Source of the DNA: Naegleria gruberi
Lineage: Eukaryota
DNA length: 64,000 nt
Assembly (NCBI GenBank): GCA_000004985.1
Contig: GG738928.1
Direction: 5' to 3' (one strand)
How positions within the stretch are numbered: the stretch's first letter is position 1; each line of letters starts with the position of its first letter. The translations under genes and the position numbers were made by a program. Below are positions 30,476 through 55,893 of the stretch, in pieces. Under the pieces are notes generated by a model. The model ran no database searches. It was not told the DNA's origin and was given only the letters and a program-made list of their open reading frames with translations.

Positions 30476-33192
30476 ATGGAGAGTCAAAACCCTTCTTCCA
30501 CATCTTCATCCACTTCTTCATCCTATCGAATAATCAAGGAATTAGGTAAAGGAGCCTCGGGACTTGTTGTTTTAGCTTTAAACCCAACAACGGAAGAACA
30601 AGTTGCCATCAAGCAAATTCTCTGTAAAGATGAGTATGATTTTAATATTGCCATGAAAGTATGTTTTCCATCATTTATACGATATCAATATCACAATATT
30701 AACTTTCGAATATAATAATTTAAATTTAAATTCCCATTAAAAAATTATAAATCAATTGTTTGGAACTTGAAATAGGAAGCTTGGCCATTGAGAAAGTTAG
30801 ATCATGAAAGTTTGTGTTCCATCAAGGATATTTACTTTGAAAAGATTGATTTCCATGGGATGGAATGTTACAATGTTAATTTAGTGATGGAATATTACAA
30901 AAATGGAGATTTTAGTGTTTTCCTAAAGAGGAGATGTACGAAAGAGAAACAATTGCTGAGTACGAGTGAGATTTTGGAATTTATGAGGCAGATTGCTGAG
31001 GGAATTGATTATTTGCATGAGAGAAATTTAATGCATAGGTAAGGAAATTAGAATAGTATTTTTGATTATATTCGAAATTTAGAGATTTGAAACCTCAAAA
31101 TATTTTTGTAACAGATGAAAATTCATTGAAAATTGGAGATTTTGGACTCATGAAGNNNNNNNNNNNNNNNNNNNNNNNNNNNNNNNNNNNNNNNNNNNNN
31201 NNNNNNNNNNNNNNNNNNNNNNNNNNNNNNNNNNNNNNNNNNNNNNNNNNNNNNNNNNNNNNCAAGTTGATAGTGGGAATGTTGGAGGTAGATCCGAAGA
31301 AACGACCAACATCAAAAGAGCTTGTACAAATGATTCGAAATATGATTGAAGGAAAGTCACTGGGCTGGGAAGAAAGTAGTGGAAATGAGGATTCTTCCAC
31401 TTTAAGAAAAAGGAGAGTTGCCATCACGGTATCAAAAACAGCACTCACACCCATTCAGAAATTATTTTACAGTTCAGGTGTGAGTAAAATAAGAATGGAT
31501 CCAATCATGTATGAGGATTTTGATGGAAGTGAAACTAATTTATCTGCTTTTTGCATTCATCAGGATTTGTTCCAGTTGGAAACAAGTTCAACAATTCCAA
31601 AATTTGATAATGATACGGAATTGTCATGGATTAATTCGTACCATCCACAATATTTGAATACCATTAGCTCCATGTCACTCAATCAATTATTTCTCATACT
31701 GGCCTCTCCAATGGTTCATTTTCTACCTCTATTTCCTCAATCCGTGCAAAATAGGAAGGAAAGGTTTATAGAGACAATCCTTTTCACCTATCCAATCTTT
31801 ACAACCCCACAAGTATTGTTAAAGAAGTGCTTTGAGACGCTTTCGAATATTCCACTCCAATTTTTAGAATTTCCAATCATGTATGAGGATATTGATGCAG
31901 AATGCGAAGATATTTGGAAAAATGATTATGGATTCCAAATCAATGAGAAATATACATACTGGAGATATTGCAATTCATTATATGAGTACAAGATATTTTC
32001 AATTCTGGAGTTTATAATTAAGGTAAGGCATTTAAAAATTCAAAACATCACCATCAATTTTATCTTTAAATAGTGGATTAAATTCAGAATTGATGATTGG
32101 AATTCAGCAATGTTTGATTTCCTTCATCATATAACAAAAGAATGTTTTGAATTGAAAGGATTCAAATCACTGACAGATTCTTGCATCTCACTTATTGATC
32201 TTGCTCAACAATACCAAAAAGATAGCGAAACGGAATTTGAAATCAATAGGATTTTTGTGGAAATAATAGACTCTTTCAGATTGGAACAAGTTCAAAATGA
32301 AAATGAAGAATATCACTCAGAGCTTAGAGACAAGAGATTGGAAACACCAGTTGACTTGATGAACGATCACAGGAAATTTGCTGCTCCAAAACCAATAATT
32401 CCTATGAGCATATTCAACGACAATTTTAGTTGGTATGAATTAGATAAGATTGAAATTGCAAGGCAATTATCCCTCCGTGACTATGATTACTTTAAAGAAA
32501 TTGATCCCAATGAATATTTTGAATGGATCAGACATGATAACAATCATAGTGGAAGAAGTGCTTGTAAAGCTATTATAGAAATGAAAATGATTGGCAGTTT
32601 GACAATCTCCATGCTCGTGTTTTCAATTCTCAGTCAAGTAAATATCAAGGAGAGAAAAGAACTTCTTTGTAAGGTTATTGATTTGAGCTTGGAATTATTC
32701 AATTTGAACAACTTTTTTGGAGTGGATTATGTGTTGCAAGCTCTACAGCATTCATCTGTGAAGAGATTGGAGCACACTTGGAAAGAAATTGATAGGAAAA
32801 AGATTCAACAATATGAAAAGCTGTGCTATGATATGGAACACGATTATAGGAAAATTACAATACAGCTCGCAAGAAATAATGCAATCCTCATTCCAGTGTT
32901 TATGGAACATTTCAAGGATATTCGATCTGTGGATGAAGCGTTCGAGAATGTCATTCAGGACGAGCAGGGAAATCAACTCATTCATTGGAAGAAAGTATCA
33001 TTCCTCTATTCAACCATTATTGAACCACTCTCATACAAATGTTATCCACCCTTACTCTTTCAAAAAGTTTTTCAAATCCAACAAATTCTTAAACGAGAAT
33101 ACATCCAAAACTTTAACTTTTCCTTTGAATTATTCATGAAAGATAGTTATGCAAGAGAAGGTTCTTCAACTCCAAGAAAGGATATTTTATAA
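30476..33192 (+). CDS. Ser/Thr protein kinase fused to RasGEF-N and RasGEF (CDC25-homology) domains (GefX-like); 4 or more exons, join(30476..30658, 30776..31038, 31083..32022, 32074..33192). Kinase subdomains VIII-X are lost in an assembly gap.
   Basis: Gly-loop IIKELGKGASGLVVLALN, VAIK, HRDLKPQN split across the intron at 31038/31083, DFGLMK, then 107 N, then KLIVGMLEVDPKKRPTSKEL (subdomain XI). The downstream RasGEF catalytic motif is IARQLSLRDYDYFKEIDPNEYFEW. Donors GTATGT, GTAAGG, GTAAGG. Confidence 0.7.
31156..31262. other. Assembly gap (107 N) inside the kinase-RasGEF gene
   Basis: Run of n. Confidence 0.95.
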
Positions 33193-36640: not shown

Positions 36641-36969
36641 TATTTACAAATTATTTATTTTCAATATTACAAAAACTGATAATCAATATCTGCGTTTTGA
36701 GAATAAAAATTAGATAGGATGCTTCACGCAAACAGAAGTCAGTGAAAAATGAGAGAACGTGTTTTTTCAAGAGAATTGAATAATTTTTCAGTTTTATTTG
36801 AAAACTATTAAGATTGGAGAAATCAAAAAAAACAAGAAAACGCTCTCAAATATGATAACCACCAAGATTTCAAATCTTAAAGCCAAAAAAAATAGCAATT
36901 ATCAAGAAAATTCCTACAGAAATAAAAAAAATCATATTCTTCGTTCCAATCTTTGAGTAACCTGGTAAT

Positions 36970-39828
36970 TCAATCTTCATTAATTCCAAATTGAAAGTCT
37001 TTTGAGGAACTATCTTTTGGTAGTGTGTCGAANNNNNNNNNNNNNNNNNNNNNNNNNNNNNNNNNNNNNNNNNNNNNNNNNNTTGAATATCTGAATAGGT
37101 TTGATAAAAATGTAGTATCACATGGACAACCACTGAGATTCAACTCATCCAGTGTCTGGAAGTACATGTACATAATATTAGAAAAAATTTTAGGAAATTC
37201 AATATTTGAAAGATCCAATGTTTTCAAACATGCAAATTCCTGTAAAAATGTTCTAAACGAATCACTGTAAATTGGATTGATATCTGTACTCATATCACCT
37301 GTTATATTGTTCAATTTGACATTCTCAATGGAAGGGGAATAACTCAATGAATGAGCAATTGAAAAAAGAGCAGGTGGTGACTTGTTTCCAGTGAATTTGA
37401 ATGTCTTCAGATTCTTCTTAGCTAGTAAGCTATCTCCAATTCTTTGTGTCCCTCTTTCTCCAATATCACAATGAGAAAGATCTAAATAGGTTAGATTAGG
37501 GCAGTTTTTCAATTTTTTCAAAAAATCGGCAAGATATGAGACACCGTTATCCCCAATCTTGTTGTTGCTAAAGTCTAATATTTTCAATGATGGAAAGTTA
37601 ATATAGAATGAAGAGAGATCTGATCCTGTAATCTTTGAATCATGAAATATCAAGCTCTCTATTAATGCTCTTCTAGAATAATCACTCTTAATAGAATAAA
37701 AGAATGTCTCAAAGTCTGCTCCTTTATCCTTTTCCTGATACTCGATATTCCAATGTTTGAGAATTATTGTACTAATTGGAAGGGATGATAATATTTTCGT
37801 CAAAACATCTTGGCAACCATTGAACCAACAAGTCTCCAAACATTTGCATTTAGAATATCTGCTAATCATTCCAGAAAGGAGAATGAAATTATTTCTTTCA
37901 GCCATTTCACGAAGAGTTCTGCTCATCGACTTTTGTAAATATAATTGCATCCATGCGTCTTTCATCTCCTTTAAATAGTAAGGAAGTTTTGAAATTCTCC
38001 ATTTTGAATTGCAAGCAATTTTCCATTCTTGTTCTGATGTAAGTTTTGGCAAATCTTCTAGAACTATGTGTTTTCTAAAATTTGTTGGAGGTTTTCCATG
38101 GTAGCCTTTTTGTAAACTACTCTGAATGCAGGATTTGAGTAGTTCAATAACACTATCATGAGTTTCAAATACATGGAGAGATGACATTTCATTCAGTAAC
38201 TTGAAGAAGGTTTTAAAGTCATTCATCTTTTCAATTTGGTTCAATTTTTCTATGAACGAATCTATGGATTGATAAGGCAATATTCCACAATTTTCATTCA
38301 TAAATTTAGAAATACTTTCAATAGAGTTAAAATCGGAAAAGATCTGGATAAAGTAAATGTGTAATGTGAGTTCTTTCAACCTCTTTCTGATACTTTTGAA
38401 AGAATAGGACACTCTGTCGTCATCAGTTACTTCAGCACATTGAAAATCTGCAATTTCCTTGTAGCTCTTCAAAATATTCTTAACATATCTTGTCAAGAAT
38501 TCTCTAACATAGATATCATACAAATCTTTCCAATCAAATTTTGAAAATGGAATTAGCATTACAAAGTTTAACAAATCTCCAACTTTTTCTTTTGATCTTT
38601 CTTCACTTCTAATAAAGGAATCAATAGAGCTATTAATCAATTCACTAATCTCTGGAATTTCCTTAATCGCCTCGATCATCAATCTGAAAAATCTCAAGCA
38701 AGCCATAAATGCATTGGTGGTCTTTTCTCTCTGATCAACCATTTGAAGCAAACAATTAGACATCAATCGAGGAAGAATTTCAATAACTTGTTCTGGTGAA
38801 AAATCTATCTTTTTCGAATGGGAACTGGACAAATTAGCTAATGAAGATTTGGTAACGTGAAGAACCTTCTTGATATGAATTTCATCATTTGTTTCTGTAA
38901 GGATTGGTATCCAGTGTGTAAATGAAGTTTTCTCTCTTGACATTCCTCTCACATTATAATTCATGAACGCTCTCAATGAAAGAATATCCAGAGAGCAATA
39001 TATAGAACATATTTCCAATGATTTTGCGTTTCTCTTTTTACAGTTAATTCCATAGCCAACAAGATCACTTGTTTTGGTAAAGAAGCAAACTGAATCTGAG
39101 TTGGCTAACACTTTCTCAACTTTACAATTCATTCTTTTGAAACCATCATCTTCCTCTCTAGATACAAATGGAGGAGAAGGTAAATGATTAGAATGGCCAA
39201 CTTTTCTATTAACATATGCTTTGGCATGTGACATTGACCATTCCTGAGCTGACAAGTATTCTTCCTTTTTTTCCTCAAAAGTCTTTGGATCCTGAATATT
39301 TGACAATACTCTAGTCACATCTGCTCCATCATATAAAAACGTTTGCAACTGCATCAAGATTGAATGAACAGAATAAATTGGTTTCCACTCCTCAAGAAAA
39401 TCCAAACAAATCCTATCAGAATCGACCACATTAGGATGTTCCATCCTCGTACACAATCGAATAGTGGGCGCCTCCATTGGATAATTCTCACTAAACTTGA
39501 TCACTGCATGAAAAACCACACCATCATACATGGTATCTGAATTTCCTCGAATATTTACGTGCCACATCATGAAATCCCTCTCATCATCCACCTGAAAATT
39601 CATCTCCCGATAAATATTCATTATTTTCAAATTATCGAGAGCCTTCTTCTTCTTGATCGGAGCTGGACATGCACTCACATGACTCAGTGGATTTTCTTGA
39701 ATGTATTTAAATTCGGAATATAATCTTTTCAAGGCTAAAATTGGAGAAGTTTTACAATGTTTGTAACTATTCGGATCTGAATTTGCTTTCGAACGTGCAT
39801 TGGGCTTGATCTTTTGGTGTTGAGACAT
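36970..39828 (-). CDS. Ubiquitin-conjugating enzyme (UBC/E2) domain fused to a roughly 600-aa linker and a C-terminal RNI-type leucine-rich-repeat domain; an assembly gap lies near the C-terminus
   Basis: N-terminal UBC fold: LKRLYSEFKYIQENP...FMMWHVNIRGNSDTMYDGVVFHAVIKFSENYPMEAPTIRLCTRMEHPNVVDSDRICLDFLEEWKPIYSVHSILMQLQTFL, carrying the HPN motif and the catalytic Cys. C-terminal RNI-like LRRs: LKILDFSNNKIGDNGVSYLADFLKKLKNCPNLTYLDLSHCDIGERG...LDLSNIEF. 50 N at 37033-37082. Confidence 0.65.
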   Translation of the reverse strand: MSQHQKIKPNARSKANSDPNSYKHCKTSPILALKRLYSEFKYIQENPLSHVSACPAPIKKKKALDNLKIMNIYREMNFQVDDERDFMMWHVNIRGNSDTMYDGVVFHAVIKFSENYPMEAPTIRLCTRMEHPNVVDSDRICLDFLEEWKPIYSVHSILMQLQTFLYDGADVTRVLSNIQDPKTFEEKKEEYLSAQEWSMSHAKAYVNRKVGHSNHLPSPPFVSREEDDGFKRMNCKVEKVLANSDSVCFFTKTSDLVGYGINCKKRNAKSLEICSIYCSLDILSLRAFMNYNVRGMSREKTSFTHWIPILTETNDEIHIKKVLHVTKSSLANLSSSHSKKIDFSPEQVIEILPRLMSNCLLQMVDQREKTTNAFMACLRFFRLMIEAIKEIPEISELINSSIDSFIRSEERSKEKVGDLLNFVMLIPFSKFDWKDLYDIYVREFLTRYVKNILKSYKEIADFQCAEVTDDDRVSYSFKSIRKRLKELTLHIYFIQIFSDFNSIESISKFMNENCGILPYQSIDSFIEKLNQIEKMNDFKTFFKLLNEMSSLHVFETHDSVIELLKSCIQSSLQKGYHGKPPTNFRKHIVLEDLPKLTSEQEWKIACNSKWRISKLPYYLKEMKDAWMQLYLQKSMSRTLREMAERNNFILLSGMISRYSKCKCLETCWFNGCQDVLTKILSSLPISTIILKHWNIEYQEKDKGADFETFFYSIKSDYSRRALIESLIFHDSKITGSDLSSFYINFPSLKILDFSNNKIGDNGVSYLADFLKKLKNCPNLTYLDLSHCDIGERGTQRIGDSLLAKKNLKTFKFTGNKSPPALFSIAHSLSYSPSIENVKLNNITGDMSTDINPIYSDSFRTFLQEFACLKTLDLSNIEFPKIFSNIMYMYFQTLDELNLSGCPCDTTFLSNLFRYSXXXXXXXXXXXXXXXXXFDTLPKDSSSKDFQFGINED
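37033..37082. other. Assembly gap (50 N) inside the E2-LRR gene
   Basis: Run of n. Confidence 0.95.
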
Positions 39829-41349: not shown

Positions 41350-44300
41350 TTAAATCAATTTCGAATCATTCAACAAATTTTCTCTGGTTTTACCAGAATT
41401 TTCATAAAAAACAAACTCATCTGTTGTAGTAAATCTGGAAAAGGTATCATTCAAGTTGATAATAATCTGATCTTGTAGTGAGCTGATTGATTGTTGCAAT
41501 TTTTCATGGAATGCTTCTGGTATTTCCTTTTCATTCTTTGATTTCATTTCTTGATTGTTCTTGGCAGAGTTGACCAATTCACTAAGTGATTTTCTCATTT
41601 GTTTGAATTCGTTTCTAGTTTCGGATGGAATGTTAACTTCCTTAATGGAGCCACTTTCAATATAATTGGTAAATAATTCTTCAATCAATGAATTCACAGA
41701 GTCAATTCTGTCATTTGCTTTGATTAACTCTTGGAGTTGTTTCAGTTCCAAATATAAATGCAAGTTTTCTAATGAATATTCCTTTTTACAGAATGATTCG
41801 AATAGTTTCAGACCTTCTCTATTCGATAGTAATTGTTCCAATTCATCCTTTTCTTCATTACTCGATTGGTTTCTAAAATTCTTTTGTTTGATGAAATGAA
41901 CTAATCTCACAATAAGTGCAAATCCTCCAAATACCAACAAGTAACTAAACAAGTACAATATTTCAAATAGCAATGAAATTGAATCGTTCACTCTTGAATT
42001 TACATCACCTCTCTTGTAACTCAAACCTGACAATCCAATAATTTGTGAAATTACCAAAAATGTAAAGCAAACAATAAATAAAATCATTTCCACTCTAAAG
42101 TATAATGGAGTATCGAGTTGAATGAACCAATCATAAGCTCTCTTGATTGGAACTTTTGCCATTTTCTTGGCAGTTTCCTTATCAAACTTTTGTAAAGCTT
42201 CCTTGTTAAACGAAAGTGAACTATTTGATAAATTACTTGTTGATTTTTCATTACTATCCACAAGCATTTCAGATTCATTTCTAGAATTCAAAAGTGACAT
42301 GATCACATCTAACAAAATCAATGCACATATAAGAAATCCCAATGATAAAATCATAATTGTAAACGAAATTGAAACAATGTAAGAATATTCGATTCCTGTA
42401 ATGACACTCGTTCTCACAAGAATTACCCACAACGTCCAATACATTAGGTTCACGGTCATAAAGATTCCCATGATGGAAATCATTGCTCTTGTGGAGAGGA
42501 AAATTCTAATCACTCTCAAAATTTTGTCTCCCTTTTGGTACAATTGACTAGTTCTATCATTTTGGTTCAATGAGAATTTAATGGATAATCTATGATAGAA
42601 ATATTTGAGAATGTGAAATCTTGATGTCTGATACAAGTATGAAAACATTGCTGTCAAAGTCAAAGTGTTTACAATAATTGTAATAACATTCGAAACAATA
42701 TTCGATGCCAAATTACCATTTTCCAATTGAATCACCGTCGACTCTGTCAATCCCTCACTCTTCAATGATAATATCAACCCATTTCTAGTAGTATCCAACA
42801 AAATACTCCTCTGAACTATCAGAAATAGTCCACTTTCCACCACCAATGCAAACATTCCAATAAACGGAGTTACAAATCGACTCGCCAATGGTTGAGATTT
42901 TCGCATCACAATCAAGGCAACGAGAATTGAACTCGACAAGATGAAAAATAAAACACCAAATGAAATTTGTGCAATGTACAATTCGGATAATTGTTCGGCA
43001 GCCCTTAATGAATCAGTTGCGGTGTTATTAAGGGAGTTTTCGATAAAGGCAGCGAAGAGTGTGGTGTGCGTACATTTACAAATTAAATCTCCGTTTGATT
43101 GTAAAGTGGAAAGCGAGCAGCCGCTGGAATCCCATTGTAAAGTTGTTTCATTCCAGAATTTACAAGTGATTTGAGATGAATTGAGAGAATTGATTGTTTG
43201 ATTCAATATTGTAAAGTTAATTGAAATTGGTTGAGTCAATTCTGAAAGTGGTAATGTTTTACCTCCTAAATAAAGAGTGAAATCTTTAGAGTTGGTCAAT
43301 TGAGTTTGATTTGAAGTAAATAGAGGATTAGTATAGGTTATGAGTGATAATCCAACTTCCTTATTGTAGCCATCGTATTTTGTTAGAATGTAATCCGAAT
43401 CTAAACTAATGTCGGAGAATTTTTCTAATTTAGTGCTGTTAGAATTCTTAATAAATGTTGAAACTGTTACATTAATCAAATCTGATGAATAAACTGTGGA
43501 AATAATAGATTCGGATAATAATTTGACCGATTGCTGCAATAATAGAACAGATGTCAATTGAGTACAAGTATTCGAAACATTTGAGAAACCAAAAGAAAGT
43601 AAATTACTTGCACTTGTCAAGGTTGTTTGTAAATCAGAATCTGAAATTCTTTGCTTTGTAACGTAGCCAAGAGTTTCCTTTTCTTTTTTGTAAATTTCAT
43701 TAACTTGATTCAAATAATTTCCTAATTTGTCATTAATTGCTGTAGCAACCTCATTGGAAGAAGCTGATAAAGTAATTTGTTTCAGATTTTCCAAAGCAGT
43801 GGACGGATTGGAAATGTCAATTGTCATCTTATTGACAGACTCTACAAGTACTGAACTAGTTACTTCCTTTCTCAATTTTAAACTTGTATCATATGGAAAT
43901 ACAGTTGCAATACTACCCATTCTTGCTTTCAAAACTTCTGAAGAATCGTCCAAATTTGCACTAATCGAAACTGAACTAATCGATTGAGAATATTCAGTCC
44001 CCAACGCATCCAAACAAATTACAAACAATTCCAAACTTTGACTTGTAGCCAAACTTGTTTCATTCAAATAGGGAAGATACACAGAATCTCTTCCACTTGT
44101 CAAAAATTCTGAAATTCTAATCATTGAATTCTTAAATTTAAATCCAAAAGCAAATTTGAGAGGAGAAAGAAACAATCGACTCGCATTCGAATCTGTAAAA
44201 TTCCAAGCACCTACAACTTCCTCAATAATAAAACTTGTTTTCAGTGCAACACCTGACAATGGTTGAATATTAACAATTGCCATTGGATTTCGAATTGGTG

Positions 44301-46187
44301 GTGCGACGAGAATTACTTGTTGTGAAATGGCGATGATTTGATCCTTAATTGGCTTAATAAGGAGTGTGAAGGTGAGATTTCCAGAGGATTGGATGGTTGG
44401 TTGGATTTTGATGGAAATGATGGGATTGAAGGTCAATGTGAATAAGTTGGCGTTGTTTTTTGGTTTCGTCAAGATTCCAATAACATTTTCATCTGCTGAA
44501 ATAACTTCAGAACCAAACATGAATGAATATTTCAATGAAATGGTACAATTTGCAGTAGCACACTCATCCCTTGTTAATTTCAAATCTGAACTAGTTCTCA
44601 ATTCAACGCTCACAATATTGAAATCAACATTGTTTTTCACACCATTCACAAGTACTTGTGGAATTCCAATAGCATTCAGTGATCTTTCCACTAAAAGTGA
44701 ACAATCTATACCTAAATATCCTCCAGTACAAGTACAAAAGTCAGGTTGTAGACAATTGCCATTTCCAGAACAAACATTCGGTGAATTAGCCGAAACTCCA
44801 AAACAAATTGGAATGAAACAATTAGGTCCAGTATATCCAGGTGAACAAGTACAATTATTTGAAGAAGCACAAATACCATTTCCTGAACAAACTCTATTAT
44901 CATTTGCAGCAATTCCAAAACAACCAATCGAGCCACAATTATTTCCATAAAAACCTGGTTGACATTGACACTTGTTCATTTCAATGCATTCACCCCTTCC
45001 TGAGCAAACACTGCTACTGTTAGTACTCTCAATTCCAAAACACCAATTTGTAACACACATTGTTTTGAACTCATTCAAATAATAACCACTTTCACATGAT
45101 GGAGTTAGTGATCTAATTCTCTTTTTCAAAAATTCTGAAATATAAATTACACCACTTGTCTCATTAAATACTAAACCTCTTGCATCACTCACTGAACTAT
45201 CCAGAGCATCAGTGTTTTCATATGAAGTTGTGCTATTTCCAGCAATCATTGTAAGAGTTCCATTCTTGTCAATTCTGAAAATTCTTCCCTTATATGTTTC
45301 TGTTACAAAGACAGTTTCGTCCTTGGTAACGAATAAAGCACCACCTCCAATTGGGGAACCAGTGAATGCTAGTGTTGAAATATATCCAGTTTCGTTTATC
45401 ACTCTAACACCTTTCGTATCTGATAGGAAAATCTTTCCATTCCTAACAAAAATATCAAAAGGAGACTGAAGAATAGCACTAGTAGCTAGAACACCCTCTC
45501 CAGAATACGAAGAATCCAAATCACTTCCTGCTATTAATGAAATTATTCCATTCTTGACTAATCTAACTCTCGACTTGTCTATCAGGTAAAATTCATTCTC
45601 TGAAATTGCAAAGATTGAATTTGGACCTTTCAGAGCACTAAAAGCAGATCCATTTTCAGTGAAGGAAGACAAGGAGAAATCAGAATAGTTTCCAGCAACT
45701 GTGGAGACGAAACTATTCGGCCAATCACGAAGAGAAAGTTTTCTGACAATTCTATGTATTCTAATGATTAAAGATAATGATGAAATTGTTATATTGTGAT
45801 ATTGTGTGAAAATGTCATGTTATTAGCTTACCTGTCAACGTAAAAGAGGGTGTCATTGAAAATACTCGAGTCAGCCACAGTTGACATACAAATAGTGTTC
45901 TGATTACCATCAGGAGTGTATATTGAAGTGTTGTTTCCAATCTTGTTAGGAGAAAAACTTTCACTTTCCAATGAAAAGATTCGAATAGTACGGTTTAAAC
46001 CATCAGAAACGATTAGTTCGTTGTTGTATAAGGAAATTCCATACATTCCAATATCTGGTGTAGAAATTGGACCAATAGTCTTGATAATGTATTTAACACT
46101 AGCTTGTTTTTGTTCTTGTCCATCAACAGCCACAAACAGTAACAACACAATTGACAACAACAACCATGTATGACAGTTGACTTTCAT
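41350..46187 (-). CDS. Adhesion-GPCR-like receptor: signal peptide, NHL repeats, 3 tenascin-type EGF modules, large ectodomain, GPS motif, 7TM, C-terminal RGS domain; 2 exons, join(46187..45832, 45760..41350), about 1590 aa
   Basis: Exon 1: MKVNCHTWLLLSIVLLLFVAVDG (signal peptide) plus NHL-like repeats. Donor GTAAGC at 45831, acceptor TAG at 45761, phase 2. Exon 2: NHL repeats (GSPIGGGALFVTKDETVFVTETYKGRIFRI), EGF modules (CSGRGECIEMNKCQCQPGFYGNNC; CSGNGICASSNNCTCSPGYTGPNC; CSGNGNCLQPDFCTCTGGYLGIDC), GPS motif (CKFWNETTLQWDSSGCSLSTLQSNGDLICKCTHTTLFAAF), seven hydrophobic helices, then the RGS domain (LKLFESFCKKEYSLENLHLYLELKQL...FTNYIESGSIKEVNIP...). Confidence 0.75.
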
Positions 46188-54414: not shown

Positions 54415-55893
54415 TTATATAGCCTCAATTAAATGATAATTCTTCTTTCCTAATCTCAATACAGCAATTGATCCATTACCTGCCACAAGATCAGCTTCTG
54501 TCATGACATATTTTGGATCTATTTGTCTCTTGTAATTAATGTAAAAACCTCCACTCTTGATCAATTTACCCAATTCAGATTTGGATGGTCCAAGCTTGAG
54601 AGCTAAAGCAATATCTATAATTGGCTTAGATAAAAGATCTTCCTTTGGTACTTGTCCACCAACAGAATCCTTCATTAGTGATGTAATATCTTTCTTTGAT
54701 AAGGTCTTTAAAATTTCAATTGCTTCCTCACTGCTAGCTCCAAATAATAAATTTGTACATTTTTGTACCTTTTCCAATTGTTCCTTTCCGTGAATTTGTG
54801 TTGTTAATTCTTCAGCAAGTCTTTGTTGAGCAATTCTCTTTTCTGGTTGCTGATTGTGTTCTTGTAAGATTTGGTCAATATCTTCCAAGCTAACAAATGT
54901 TAACATTTTCAATAATTTCTCCACATCAGCATCTTGAACTCTGAGGAAATATTGATAAAAATCAAAGACAGAAGTCATTTCAGGATTGAGCCAGACAGCA
55001 TTACCCATAGATTTACCAAATTTAACTCCATCAGCAGTTGTGAGTAAAGGAATTGTCATACCACTGCATACTGATTGACAACTTTCTGGCATGGCTGTTT
55101 GCTTTTTCTTTATGAATTCCAATCCACTTGTAATATTTCCCCATTGATCAGATCCTCCAATTTGAAGTCTTACGTTATTTGAGTTCAATAAATGGAAAAA
55201 ATCATAACTTTGGAAAAGTGAGTAGGAAAATTCAGTAAAAGTCATACCACCATTATCAGCATCAGCATTTTCAACTCTAGATTTAACACTGTCCAATCTT
55301 AACATGTTAGCAATTTGGAAATATTTTCCAACATTTCTCAATAAATCAATCATTTTCATTTCTCCCAACCAATCAGCATTATTGACAACTGTGACATTGT
55401 TCTTAGAGGAGAAGAAAGAATTCATTTCTCTCTTCAATCCTTCAATATTATTATTAATTGTTGATTCATCCAAGAGAGGTCTCTCTGTTTTTCTGCCACT
55501 TGGATCACCAATTCTACCAGTTGCACCACCAACAAGACAATAAATATGAACATTCTTTGGATTAAAAGCCAATTGGAATCTCTTCAAAGTTTGAAGAACA
55601 AGCAAATTGCCAACATGAAGCCCCGAAGCTGTAGGATCAAAACCAGCATAAATACCAATAGACTTGGCCAATTCACTACCACTGTTCATTTCTTGCATTA
55701 AATTATCAAATCCCGAAGTAGCATCATTATAAATTCCTCTCTTTTTTAAATCGGAAATAAATTCATTATTATTTGATGATGAAGTTTGATTAAATCTCCT
55801 TTGAATATTGTTTCCTCCGATTAAATACTTTCTGTTCTTTAAAAAAAGGCCCGAGTCAACAAGGCTTGTTTGACGAAGAAGGCTTCGTTGCAT
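54415..55893 (-). CDS. Mitochondrial (bacterial-type) tyrosyl-tRNA synthetase
   Basis: N-terminal presequence, then GFDPTASGLHVGNLLVLQTLKRFQ (HIGH-type motif HVGN), KFGKSMGNAVWL (KMSKS-type) and a C-terminal S4-like domain. Confidence 0.8.
   Translation of the reverse strand: MQRSLLRQTSLVDSGLFLKNRKYLIGGNNIQRRFNQTSSSNNNEFISDLKKRGIYNDATSGFDNLMQEMNSGSELAKSIGIYAGFDPTASGLHVGNLLVLQTLKRFQLAFNPKNVHIYCLVGGATGRIGDPSGRKTERPLLDESTINNNIEGLKREMNSFFSSKNNVTVVNNADWLGEMKMIDLLRNVGKYFQIANMLRLDSVKSRVENADADNGGMTFTEFSYSLFQSYDFFHLLNSNNVRLQIGGSDQWGNITSGLEFIKKKQTAMPESCQSVCSGMTIPLLTTADGVKFGKSMGNAVWLNPEMTSVFDFYQYFLRVQDADVEKLLKMLTFVSLEDIDQILQEHNQQPEKRIAQQRLAEELTTQIHGKEQLEKVQKCTNLLFGASSEEAIEILKTLSKKDITSLMKDSVGGQVPKEDLLSKPIIDIALALKLGPSKSELGKLIKSGGFYINYKRQIDPKYVMTEADLVAGNGSIAVLRLGKKNYHLIEAI

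What the first reader, a model, noticed from the sequence alone, without database searches (positions are those of the whole stretch)
36970..39828. Ubiquitin E2 (UBC) domain fused to a large RNI-type LRR domain
The N-terminal 170 aa form a complete UBC fold, with the HPN motif and the catalytic Cys in HPNVVDSDRICLDFL. After a roughly 600-aa unassigned middle region the protein ends in ribonuclease-inhibitor-type LRRs (LDFSNNKIGDNGVSYLADFLKKLKNCPNLTYLDLSHCDIGERG).

E2 enzymes are normally small, or carry UBA or coiled-coil extensions. An E2 with its own LRR substrate- or partner-recognition domain would be an unusual, self-contained conjugation module. A 50-N gap near the C-terminus means the model is incomplete.
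Basis: partly seen in the sequence, partly recalled or inferred. Interest (0 to 1): 0.6.

Follow-up and report, generated by a model that had tools for sequence, protein, structure and literature searches.

The report
Ubiquitin E2 fused to ligase-like module
A Naegleria gruberi gene encodes an intact ubiquitin-conjugating enzyme joined in one chain to a domain shaped like the UBR4 ligase module and to a leucine-rich-repeat arm; it belongs to a conserved but undescribed protist family that may be an all-in-one ubiquitin ligase.

Summary
A 915-codon open frame (37083-39828, minus strand) runs from an ATG into the 50-N gap. It encodes a UBC domain with HPN and the catalytic Cys in register with active E2s, and ribonuclease-inhibitor-type LRRs at the C-terminal end.

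The window is Naegleria gruberi, and the gene appears to be unannotated. It aligns collinearly with 1320-1420-aa proteins from Willaertia, Percolomonas, Acrasis, Anaeramoeba and Vannella. Several of these come from complete transcripts. They carry about 400 further residues: more LRRs and a C-terminal RRM. The window copy is therefore probably cut by the gap.

The "unassigned middle" is a roughly 330-aa domain (MID). It has no Pfam family and no sequence relative in the PDB, and it almost always lies downstream of a UBC domain (424 representative proteins).

Best reading: a single-chain E2 plus E3-like module plus receptor. The UBR4 zinc ligands are not conserved, there is no sequence-level link to UBR4, and activity is untested.

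The parts
37083..39828 (-). Continuous coding frame (915 codons) from the ATG at 39828 to the edge of the N gap. This is the visible part of the gene.
   Evidence: Collinear with 13 orthologues in alignment A1.
39217..39747 (-). UBC (E2) domain, aa 28-204. The closest E2 family is Rad6/UBE2A/B.
39583..39663 (-). Lys-rich insert specific to N. gruberi (aa 56-82) in the beta1-beta2 hairpin of the UBC domain. It overlaps an in-frame intron-like GTGAGT...TTTTCAG (39592-39678).
   Evidence: Absent from all 13 orthologues. pLDDT 52-56. The first codons of the 'intron' encode VSACP, which aligns with the invariant beta1 motif, so it is probably coding.
39430..39438 (-). HPN motif (His131-Pro132-Asn133).
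   Evidence: Aligned to the HPN of UBC1 and UBE2A/B. Family census.
39406..39408 (-). Catalytic Cys141 (TGT) in RICLDFL.
   Evidence: Aligned to the active-site Cys of Rad6-family E2s. Invariant in alignment A3.
39091..39216 (-). Linker between UBC and MID (aa 205-246) carrying the conserved His212 and Pro219 motif. Many relatives have C-x2-4-C-x-H here.
   Evidence: Invariant H212 and near-invariant P219 in A1. pLDDT below 50 for aa 224-246.
38095..39090 (-). MID domain (aa 247-578). It has a beta-hairpin sub-part (about aa 247-335, containing invariant Cys248 at 39085-39087) followed by an 11-helix bundle (aa 345-574). It resembles the UBR4 hemiRING-UZI module.
37858..38034 (-). Helical linker (aa 599-657) with the conserved W..C..RW ... 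W+.LYLQ motif.
   Evidence: An F-box remnant was tested here and not supported.
37083..37851 (-). Ribonuclease-inhibitor-type LRR domain (aa 660-915). At least 9 repeats are visible before the gap cuts it.
37033..37082 (.). Assembly gap (50 N). Orthologues have about 400 more residues (9-10 LRRs plus an RRM) beyond this point.
   Evidence: No matching coding sequence was found elsewhere in the window.
36970..37032 (-). Sequence after the gap, which the ORF finder read as the last 20 codons plus the stop. Its frame relative to the gene is unknown, so it may be 3' UTR.
   Evidence: Three-frame translation shows no LRR or RRM similarity.

Best explanation
This is the 5' three-quarters of one Naegleria gruberi gene. 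It belongs to a conserved, unnamed protist family with the architecture UBC - MID - RI-type LRR - RRM.

Shown:
- The UBC domain is a Rad6-like E2 with an intact HPN and catalytic Cys.
- MID is a roughly 330-aa domain that almost always accompanies a UBC domain.
- A confident model of MID has the fold of the UBR4 hemiRING-UZI E3 module. That module binds and mildly activates UBE2A/B.
- The C-terminal part is a ribonuclease-inhibitor-type LRR solenoid, followed in orthologues by an RRM.

Inferred mechanism:
- E1 charges Cys141 with ubiquitin.
- The tethered MID docks on the E2 in cis, as the UBR4 module does in trans, and favours discharge of ubiquitin.
- The LRR arm, and in full-length proteins the RRM, brings in the substrate, probably an RNA-associated protein or RNP.

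On this reading the polypeptide is a self-contained E2-E3-receptor ligase.
For: One gene:
- A single frame of 915 codons.
- Collinear alignment with 13 proteins of 1319-1553 aa from Willaertia, Percolomonas, Acrasis, Anaeramoeba and Vannella.
- These include ORFs marked 'type:complete' in transcriptomes.

Active E2:
- UQ_con E=4.5e-25.
- HPN and Cys are in register with UBC1 and UBE2A/B.
- Nine of 14 subfamily members keep the catalytic Cys. The five that lost it also lost the HPN Asn. This coupled loss fits these two residues being the working site in the other members.

Rad6-like: both the single sequence and the family profile rank every Rad6-family chain above UBE2D.

MID:
- 424 representative proteins at E<=1e-3, 128 at E<=1e-10.
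- In most full-length hits a UBC domain lies upstream of MID.
- Invariant Cys248, Gly258, Lys413, Glu443, Arg447 and Tyr576.
- AF2 block pLDDT mostly 70-94 across MID.
- In many relatives MID ends the protein, as the module does in UBR4.

Receptor: RI-type LRR. An RRM is present in orthologues. The UBC-MID core recurs with RRM, zf-CCCH and S1 domains.

Plausibility: engineered E2-binder fusions degrade their targets (abstract of PMC11415077). UBE2O and BIRC6 work without a separate E3 (abstract of PMC12818219).
Against: - No sequence similarity to UBR4 was found. Pfam E3_UbLigase_R4 is not hit even at E<=10. The MID profile does not find 8btl_A in the PDB. Against UBR4 fragments translated from published primers, HMMER scores -3.1 bits.
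- The UBR4 C2HC zinc quartet has no conserved counterpart. Only Cys248 is invariant.
- Of the UBE2A determinants for UBR4 (Arg7, Arg8, Arg11, Arg95, Ser97), only Arg8 is kept (Arg35). The other positions are Lys34, Ser38, Glu147 and Lys149.
- Five family members have a dead E2 but keep everything else, so the conserved role may not need a cis thioester.
- pTM is 0.44, so the model says nothing reliable about how the domains pack.
- In N. gruberi itself the RRM is not visible. If the gap really is about 50 bp, the protein is truncated.
- There is no expression or activity data for this gene.
Confidence: 0.5

Rival explanations
1. This is an E2 with a built-in receptor only, in the manner of UBE2O. 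The UBC domain is active and the LRR (plus RRM) selects substrates. MID is just a structural spacer or a second binding platform with no E3-like action on the E2, and its resemblance to UBR4 is a matter of fold, not function.
For: - The UBR4 zinc ligands are not conserved and no sequence similarity to UBR4 was found.
- In the F-box-containing relatives MID sits where substrate-binding domains normally sit, directly after the F-box.
Against: - MID is bound to UBC domains across hundreds of proteins whatever other domains are present. That pattern points to a role directed at the E2.
- Its single structural match is an E2-binding E3 module whose partner E2 family is also the closest family of this UBC domain.
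Confidence: 0.2
2. This is a non-catalytic, UEV-like adaptor. The UBC domain mainly binds ubiquitin or another E2 or E3, and the family acts as a scaffold or regulator on RNPs rather than as a conjugating enzyme.
For: Five of 14 subfamily members (Anaeramoeba P0007, Vannella-type P0033, and P0011, P0017 and P0025) lack both the HPN Asn and the catalytic Cys, yet keep MID, LRR and RRM.
Against: - The N. gruberi protein and all heterolobosean relatives keep HPN and Cys.
- Roughly 80 of the 94 UBC domains in the wider family keep the Cys.
- The Asn and the Cys are lost together, which implies selection on the pair wherever they are kept.
Confidence: 0.12
3. This is a Cys-relay ligase. The absolutely invariant MID Cys248 accepts ubiquitin from the cis E2 Cys141 by transthiolation, as in HECT, RBR and RCR enzymes, and passes it to the substrate.
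For: - Cys248 is conserved in 133 of 133 aligned members although no zinc quartet is conserved around it.
- Invariant Lys, Glu, Arg and Tyr residues elsewhere in MID could form an active site.
Against: - The best structural match, the UBR4 module, is an allosteric ligase, not a transthiolating one.
- HMMER's only placement, which is not significant, puts Cys248 on the UBR4 zinc ligand Cys4838. That suggests a structural role.
- Cys248 is also kept in members whose E2 is dead.
Confidence: 0.08
4. This is an artefact or a dying gene. Either the ORF is a chimera produced by misassembly around the gap, or it is a truncated, decaying paralogue that makes no functional protein.
For: - The gene abuts an assembly gap.
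- No Naegleria protein for it appears in the protein libraries.
- It is only 33% identical to its Willaertia counterpart, whereas TyrRS is 64% identical.
- No RRM is found after the gap or elsewhere in the window.
Against: - 915 codons without a stop in 33% G+C DNA.
- The order UBC-MID-linker-LRR is the same as in 13 orthologues, and every family-invariant residue is kept.
- The gap lies inside the LRR region, not at a domain junction, so it cannot have created the fusion.
Confidence: 0.05

Closest known systems
UBR4 hemiRING-UZI E3 module with its E2 UBE2A/UBE2B (PDB 8BTL; Barnsby-Greer et al. 2024, PMC10873205)
   Same: - Both have a beta-sheet sub-part followed by 11 helices.
- In many relatives MID is C-terminal, as the module is in UBR4.
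- The accompanying E2 is of the Rad6/UBE2A/B type.
   Different: - Here the E2 and the module are one polypeptide. In UBR4 they are separate proteins.
- No detectable sequence similarity.
- The C2HC zinc ligands are not conserved.
- The UBE2A arginine determinants are mostly replaced.
- No UBR box. The receptor is LRR (plus RRM).
UBE2O (E2-230K), an E2/E3 hybrid
   Same: A large protein in which a UBC domain is joined to its own substrate-recruiting regions and needs no separate E3 (abstract of PMC12818219).
   Different: - No homology outside the UBC domain.
- The UBC domain is N-terminal here.
- No LRR, RRM or MID in UBE2O as far as Pfam-level comparison shows.
- E3-independent activity is untested here.
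BIRC6 / BRUCE, a giant E2-E3 chimera
   Same: A UBC domain embedded in a multidomain substrate-binding protein (abstracts).
   Different: - No BIR domain here.
- Different size and architecture.
- The UBC domain here is Rad6-like.
- No homology found outside the UBC domain.
Rad6 / UBC2 / UBE2A / UBE2B class I E2s
   Same: - Best-scoring E2 family for this domain, both by single sequence and by family profile.
- HPN and Cys are in register.
   Different: - The margin over UBE2D is small (116-110 bits against 109 bits).
- A 25-residue insert in the beta1-beta2 hairpin.
- Arg7, Arg11, Arg95 and Ser97 are not kept.
- A C-terminal extension of about 700 or more residues.
Ribonuclease-inhibitor-type LRR proteins (RNH1, RanGAP1, NLRP/NOD2 LRRs, axonemal DRC5/LRRC34)
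   Different: None of these carries a UBC domain. The JGI label 'RanGAP' on relatives is only LRR similarity.
F-box/LRR proteins (Skp2, FBXL2, FBXL17)
   Different: No F-box in this protein. Pfam is negative, and hhalign of the linker against the family's F-boxes gives probability 1%.

Membership tests
UBC / E2 superfamily (Pfam PF00179) | Match to the UQ_con profile above the curated cut-off | tested here: met
   [not shown]
UBC / E2 superfamily (Pfam PF00179) | HPN motif and catalytic Cys in register with active E2s | tested here: met
   H131-P132-N133 and C141 align with the UBC1 and UBE2A/B active site. Scored HPN+C in the family census.
UBC / E2 superfamily (Pfam PF00179) | E1-dependent thioester with ubiquitin or a ubiquitin-like protein | not testable with these tools
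   Needs biochemistry.
Rad6 / UBE2A/B family | Closest E2 family by sequence | tested here: met
   The top 13 PDB sequences for family profile A3 are all Rad6-family (115.8-109.8 bits), ahead of UBE2D at 108.7 or less. The order is the same for the single sequence. The margin is small.
Rad6 / UBE2A/B family | The UBE2A/B-specific residues Arg7, Arg8, Arg11, Arg95 and Ser97, used by the UBR4 hemiRING | tested here: not met
   The equivalent positions are Lys34, Arg35, Ser38, Glu147 and Lys149 (alignment, determinants). This is not an orthologue of Rad6, only its nearest family.
UBR4-type hemiRING-UZI E3 module | Overall fold: a beta-sheet cross-brace sub-part plus an 11-helix UZI bundle | tested here: met
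   [not shown]
UBR4-type hemiRING-UZI E3 module | C2HC zinc site (Cys4838, Cys4841, His4887, Cys4890) | tested here: not met
   Only Cys248 is invariant. No conserved CxxC...HxxC pattern. His318 is 84% conserved, His577 85%, His381 70% and His250 52%.
UBR4-type hemiRING-UZI E3 module | Detectable sequence homology to UBR4 (Pfam E3_UbLigase_R4 or the PDB 8BTL sequence) | tested here: not met
   No hit at E<=10 in 24 MID sequences. The MID profile against the PDB finds only chance hits. HMMER scores -3.1 bits on primer-derived UBR4 fragments. A profile-profile test against UBR4 families could not be run.
UBR4-type hemiRING-UZI E3 module | Binds the E2 and stimulates ubiquitin transfer | not testable with these tools
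   Needs binding and discharge assays or a complex structure.
Ribonuclease-inhibitor-type LRR | LRR_6-type repeats forming a beta-alpha solenoid | tested here: met
   [not shown]
Protist UBC-MID-LRR-RRM family (unnamed; e.g. Willaertia KAL9641706.1, Acrasis KAL0483244.1, Anaeramoeba KAJ5071803.1) | Collinear UBC, MID, linker and LRR, with the family-invariant residues | tested here: met
   Alignment A1: 21-32% identity across the 13 sequences, and all invariant columns are kept. The top exhaustive hit scores E=2.9e-62.
Protist UBC-MID-LRR-RRM family (unnamed; e.g. Willaertia KAL9641706.1, Acrasis KAL0483244.1, Anaeramoeba KAJ5071803.1) | C-terminal RRM | tested here: inconclusive
   Present in orthologues. 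In the window the gene runs into the gap, and no RRM-like coding sequence is found after it or elsewhere.
E2/E3 hybrids UBE2O and BIRC6 | Homology outside the UBC domain (UBE2O conserved regions, BIR domain) | tested here: not met
   The Pfam scan shows only UQ_con and LRR families. The resemblance is one of logic only.
F-box proteins (SCF receptors) | F-box motif | tested here: not met
   No Pfam F-box hit. hhalign of aa 575-665 against the family's own F-boxes gives probability 1%.

The most novel reading that the evidence does not exclude
The UBC-MID proteins are a third natural class of single-chain E2-E3 enzymes. A Rad6-like E2 is permanently tethered to a zinc-poor relative of the UBR4 hemiRING-UZI module. 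Interchangeable receptors (RI-type LRR, F-box, WD40, VWA) and RNA-binding domains (RRM, CCCH, S1) are added to this core.

On this reading the LRR-RRM branch, including this Naegleria gene, would ubiquitinate RNA-bound proteins or RNPs. That could serve quality control, or an NLR-like sensing role in amoeboid protists. The invariant MID cysteine could be the last zinc ligand or a catalytic relay residue.

This reading would also give the otherwise isolated UBR4 module a wide evolutionary family.
Probability: 0.35. Interest if true: 0.8.

Novelty: new variant of a known kind. Interest (0 to 1): 0.65.

Why it matters
- Only two E2s, UBE2O and BIRC6, are recognised as ligases in their own right (abstract of PMC12818219). 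The UBR4 hemiRING-UZI module was described in 2024 as a fold without neighbours.
- A widespread protist family that welds a Rad6-like E2 to a UBR4-like module would show that this E2-E3 pairing is old enough to have been fused. It would also give a compact, roughly 600-aa system for studying how the module activates its E2.
- The family links ubiquitin conjugation directly to RNA-binding domains.
- It shows that a roughly 330-aa domain found in hundreds of proteins is still missing from Pfam.
- For Naegleria, it flags an unannotated gene cut by an assembly gap.

Tried and rejected
- Word-indexed protein search. With the protein and with alignment A1 it found only P0001, P0002 and an NLRC5, not even the members of the alignment. 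The exhaustive HMMER search was needed.
- Single-sequence AlphaFold was useless, with pLDDT 36.6.
- Intron hypothesis for the UBC insert. GTGAGT...TTTTCAG (39592-39678, 87 nt, in frame) looks like an intron. Its first codons encode VSACP, aligned with the invariant beta1 motif, and there is no other GT donor inside. It was rejected as the main reading.
- F-box remnant between MID and the LRR. hhalign gives probability 1%.
- MID against Pfam and against PDB sequences gave only chance hits, with GAK kinase at E=0.2.
- Sequence link to UBR4. Fragments translated from the paper's mutagenesis primers were tested against the MID HMM. The score was -3.1 bits, not significant, although the placement puts Cys4838 on Cys248.
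- A search for the missing LRR and RRM part elsewhere in the window by tblastn found nothing beyond self-similar LRRs.
- Closing the gap. An exact-match scan of JGI metagenomes with the gap flank gave 0 hits. Exact-protein look-ups of two neighbouring ORFs found nothing, and the one for TyrRS found only a short ENA contig.
- Foldseek against the PDB showed only E2 and LRR hits in its top 50.
- Literature searches for E2-LRR, E2-F-box or hemiRING fusions found no description of this family.
Full report
**What is in the sequence**

On the minus strand an ATG at 39828 opens a frame that runs without a stop for 915 codons, to the edge of a 50-N run at 37033-37082. The ORF finder carried the frame through the Ns to a stop at 36970. 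The frame across an assembly gap is arbitrary, so the last 20 residues and that stop are not established.

The window has 29-37% G+C and encodes eukaryotic proteins such as RasGEF, protein kinases and an EGF/GPS/RGS receptor. The tyrosyl-tRNA synthetase ORF at 54415-55893 is 100% identical to a Naegleria gruberi protein. It is 75% identical to N. fowleri and N. lovaniensis and 64% to Willaertia. The window is therefore N. gruberi.

Pfam UQ_con matches aa 78-191 with E=4.5e-25, at 88 bits against a cut-off of 27. LRR_6 and related LRR families match from aa 723 onward.

Against solved structures the best sequences are Arabidopsis UBC1 and human UBE2B and UBE2A, at E=1e-19 to 4e-17. His131-Pro132-Asn133 and Cys141 lie on their HPN and active-site Cys, and helix 1 is also aligned.

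The LRR part is closest to ribonuclease inhibitor (E=6.8e-14), LRRC34 and NLRP proteins.

The UBC fold spans about aa 28-204. It contains a 25-residue Lys-rich insert between beta1 and beta2 that none of 13 orthologues has. The insert overlaps an in-frame GTGAGT...TTTTCAG of 87 nt. However, the first codons of that stretch encode VSACP, which aligns with the invariant beta1 motif (Pro55 is invariant). I therefore read it as coding sequence, not an intron.

**It is one gene and part of a family**

The word-indexed protein search found almost nothing. An exhaustive HMMER search with the middle region (aa 197-725) against 1.84 billion representative proteins found 424 at E<=1e-3 and 128 at E<=1e-10. 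The best hits are 1220-1420-aa proteins.

Pfam shows UQ_con at their N-terminus, LRR_6 over about 500 residues, and an RRM at the C-terminus. Named members are:
- Willaertia magna KAL9641706.1 ('hypothetical protein')
- a Percolomonas transcript
- Acrasis kona KAL0483244.1 ('ubiquitin conjugating enzyme E2')
- Anaeramoeba ignava KAJ5071803.1 ('leucine rich repeat family protein')
- a Vannella transcript

Several are transcriptome ORFs marked complete.

The N. gruberi protein aligns collinearly with 13 of them, at 21-32% identity, and keeps every invariant column. Its sequence stops at the gap, at a point where the others continue for about 400 residues with 9-10 more LRRs and the RRM.

No such coding sequence lies in the 392 bp between the gap and the next, convergent gene, or anywhere else in the window. 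So either the gap hides 1.2 kb or more, or the N. gruberi copy is truncated.

No Naegleria protein closer than the 33%-identical Willaertia one is in the libraries, so the gene appears to be unannotated.

**The 'unassigned middle' is a domain of its own (MID, aa 247-578)**

Local HMMER mapping of the 150 best hits shows that MID has a UBC domain upstream in most full-length hits, whatever else the protein carries. The partners found are LRR-RRM, F-box, VWA, WD40, zf-CCCH, S1 and extra RRMs. RNA-binding domains recur among them.

Known source organisms are Heterolobosea, Anaeramoeba and Amoebozoa (Vannella, Arcella, Pyxidicula, Soliformovum). Many other sequences come from metagenomes.

MID has no Pfam family, even at E<=10, and no sequence relative in the PDB.

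Across about 150 sequences the following residues are invariant or nearly so:
- Cys248 (133 of 133)
- Gly258
- Pro308
- Lys413
- Glu443
- Arg447
- Tyr576

**Structure**

AlphaFold2 with the 14-sequence alignment gave mean pLDDT 78 (pTM 0.44). Across MID the block values are mostly 70-94. The model shows a beta-hairpin part at aa 257-308 followed by 11 helices at aa 345-574.

8BTL is the crystal structure of the UBR4 E3 module, residues 4831-5183, bound to UBE2A. Only MID is large enough and helical enough to account for 282 aligned residues.

The paper on that structure (PMC10873205) describes the following:
- A 'hemiRING' with an extended beta sheet and a single C2HC zinc site.
- A UZI bundle of 11 helices that runs to the C-terminus.
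- Specificity for UBE2A/UBE2B.
- Mild allosteric activation of E2~Ub through the UZI subdomain.

Two independent facts fit this match. The UBC domain here, and the profile of the family's UBC domains, rank every Rad6/UBE2A/B chain ahead of UBE2D, although by only a few bits. And in many short family members MID ends the protein, as the module does in UBR4.

**Limits of that link**

- It rests on one fold match to a predicted model, and the tool does not print the aligned ranges.
- There is no sequence-level support. Pfam's UBR4 family is not hit. UBR4 fragments that I translated from the paper's mutagenesis primers score -3.1 bits against the MID profile. The placement does put UBR4 Cys4838 on MID Cys248, but that score is not evidence.
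- The UBR4 zinc quartet has no conserved counterpart.
- Of the UBE2A residues that UBR4 reads (Arg7, Arg8, Arg11, Arg95, Ser97), only Arg8 is kept. A tethered pair may need less affinity, but that is an argument, not a test.

**Is the E2 active?**

In N. gruberi and the other Heterolobosea, HPN and the Cys are intact. Of 94 UBC domains in the wider family, about 80 keep the Cys; 34 have HPN and many have HxH in its place.

In the LRR-RRM branch 9 of 14 keep the Cys. The five that lost it also lost the HPN Asn. This coupled loss argues that the pair is functional where it is kept. It also shows that part of the family works without a cis thioester.

**Most likely mechanism (inferred)**

E1 loads Cys141. 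MID, tethered by a linker of about 45 residues, docks on the E2 as the UBR4 module does and promotes discharge. The LRR solenoid, and the RRM in full-length proteins, recruits an RNA-associated substrate.

Shown: the domain identities, the intact active site, the conservation, the UBC-MID coupling and the fold match. Inferred: cis docking, E3-like activation, the receptor role and the kind of substrate.

Rival readings are a UBE2O-like E2 with MID as a mere scaffold, a UEV-like adaptor, a Cys248 relay ligase, and an assembly artefact or decaying copy. Each is weighed in its own section.

**Comparison and novelty**

The logic is that of the E2/E3 hybrids UBE2O and BIRC6, described as the only two E2s that work without an E3. 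There is no homology to them outside the UBC domain.

The protein is not a Rad6 orthologue, and by the zinc-site and sequence criteria it is not a member of the UBR4 module family. It works like, or at least is built like, a Rad6-type E2 fused to a UBR4-type module.

Searches of the held literature for hemiRING, for E2 fusions, and for E2 together with F-box, LRR or Naegleria found no description of this family.

I rate it a new variant of a known kind, with interest 0.65. The fusion and the family are solid. The E3-module reading is plausible and testable but unproven.

Noticed in passing
window 41350-45672 (-): A 1440-aa ORF with NHL and EGF repeats, a GPS motif, a multi-pass membrane region and a C-terminal RGS domain (Pfam). 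This is an adhesion-GPCR-like receptor fused to an RGS domain.
   Followed up: partly
window 31087-33192 (+), N run 31156-31262: A kinase fragment plus RasGEF_N (31087-32073) and RasGEF (32110-33192) look like one gene split by a short intron. A second assembly gap of 107 N lies inside it, so gap sizes in this scaffold are not uniform.
   Followed up: partly
window 36870-37032 (-), frame 1 after the gap: One post-gap frame ends in a 19-residue hydrophobic stretch, MIFFISVGIFLIIAIFFGF-KI-stop, which resembles a tail anchor as in UBC6/UBE2J. The DNA here is T-rich, so this may be chance. It cannot be joined to the gene without closing the gap.
   Followed up: partly
window 39592-39678 (-): An in-frame 87-nt GTGAGT...TTTTCAG inside the UBC domain looks like a retained intron. 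Its 5' codons encode the conserved beta1 strand, so it is more likely a lineage-specific loop insert.
   Followed up: yes
L001 6355-6415 (Willaertia magna JBEGDK010000166.1, gene for KAL9641706.1): The annotated 61-nt intron removes the E2 helix. The genomic sequence reads ...GWSSNYTIYSILMQLQGFL and then shifts frame by one base in a T run. The public model is probably wrong, through a frameshift or a homopolymer error, and the Willaertia E2 domain is complete.
   Followed up: yes
alignment A1 (P0007, P0011, P0017, P0025, P0033): Five UBC-MID-LRR-RRM proteins, including those of Anaeramoeba and a Vannella-type sequence, have lost both the HPN Asn and the catalytic Cys but keep all other domains. 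They are pseudo-E2 members of the family.
   Followed up: partly
hits P0008, P0015, P0041, P0061, P0002, P0100: The UBC-MID core is combined elsewhere with zf-CCCH, two RRMs, S1, F-box, VWA and WD40 domains. RNA-binding partners recur.
   Followed up: partly
window 36970-39828 versus the protein libraries: No N. gruberi, N. fowleri or N. lovaniensis protein for this gene is present, and the best hit is Willaertia at 33% identity. Neighbouring N. gruberi proteins such as TyrRS are present. The gene is probably unannotated because of the gap. Its status in the other Naegleria species is unknown.
   Followed up: partly
window 54415-55893 (-) / L002: The N. gruberi TyrRS protein is also encoded, identically, on a 4.8-kb contig of an ENA metagenome assembly (ERZ929261, PRJEB11402), next to an eIF4E gene. 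N. gruberi-like DNA is therefore present in that sample.
   Followed up: no
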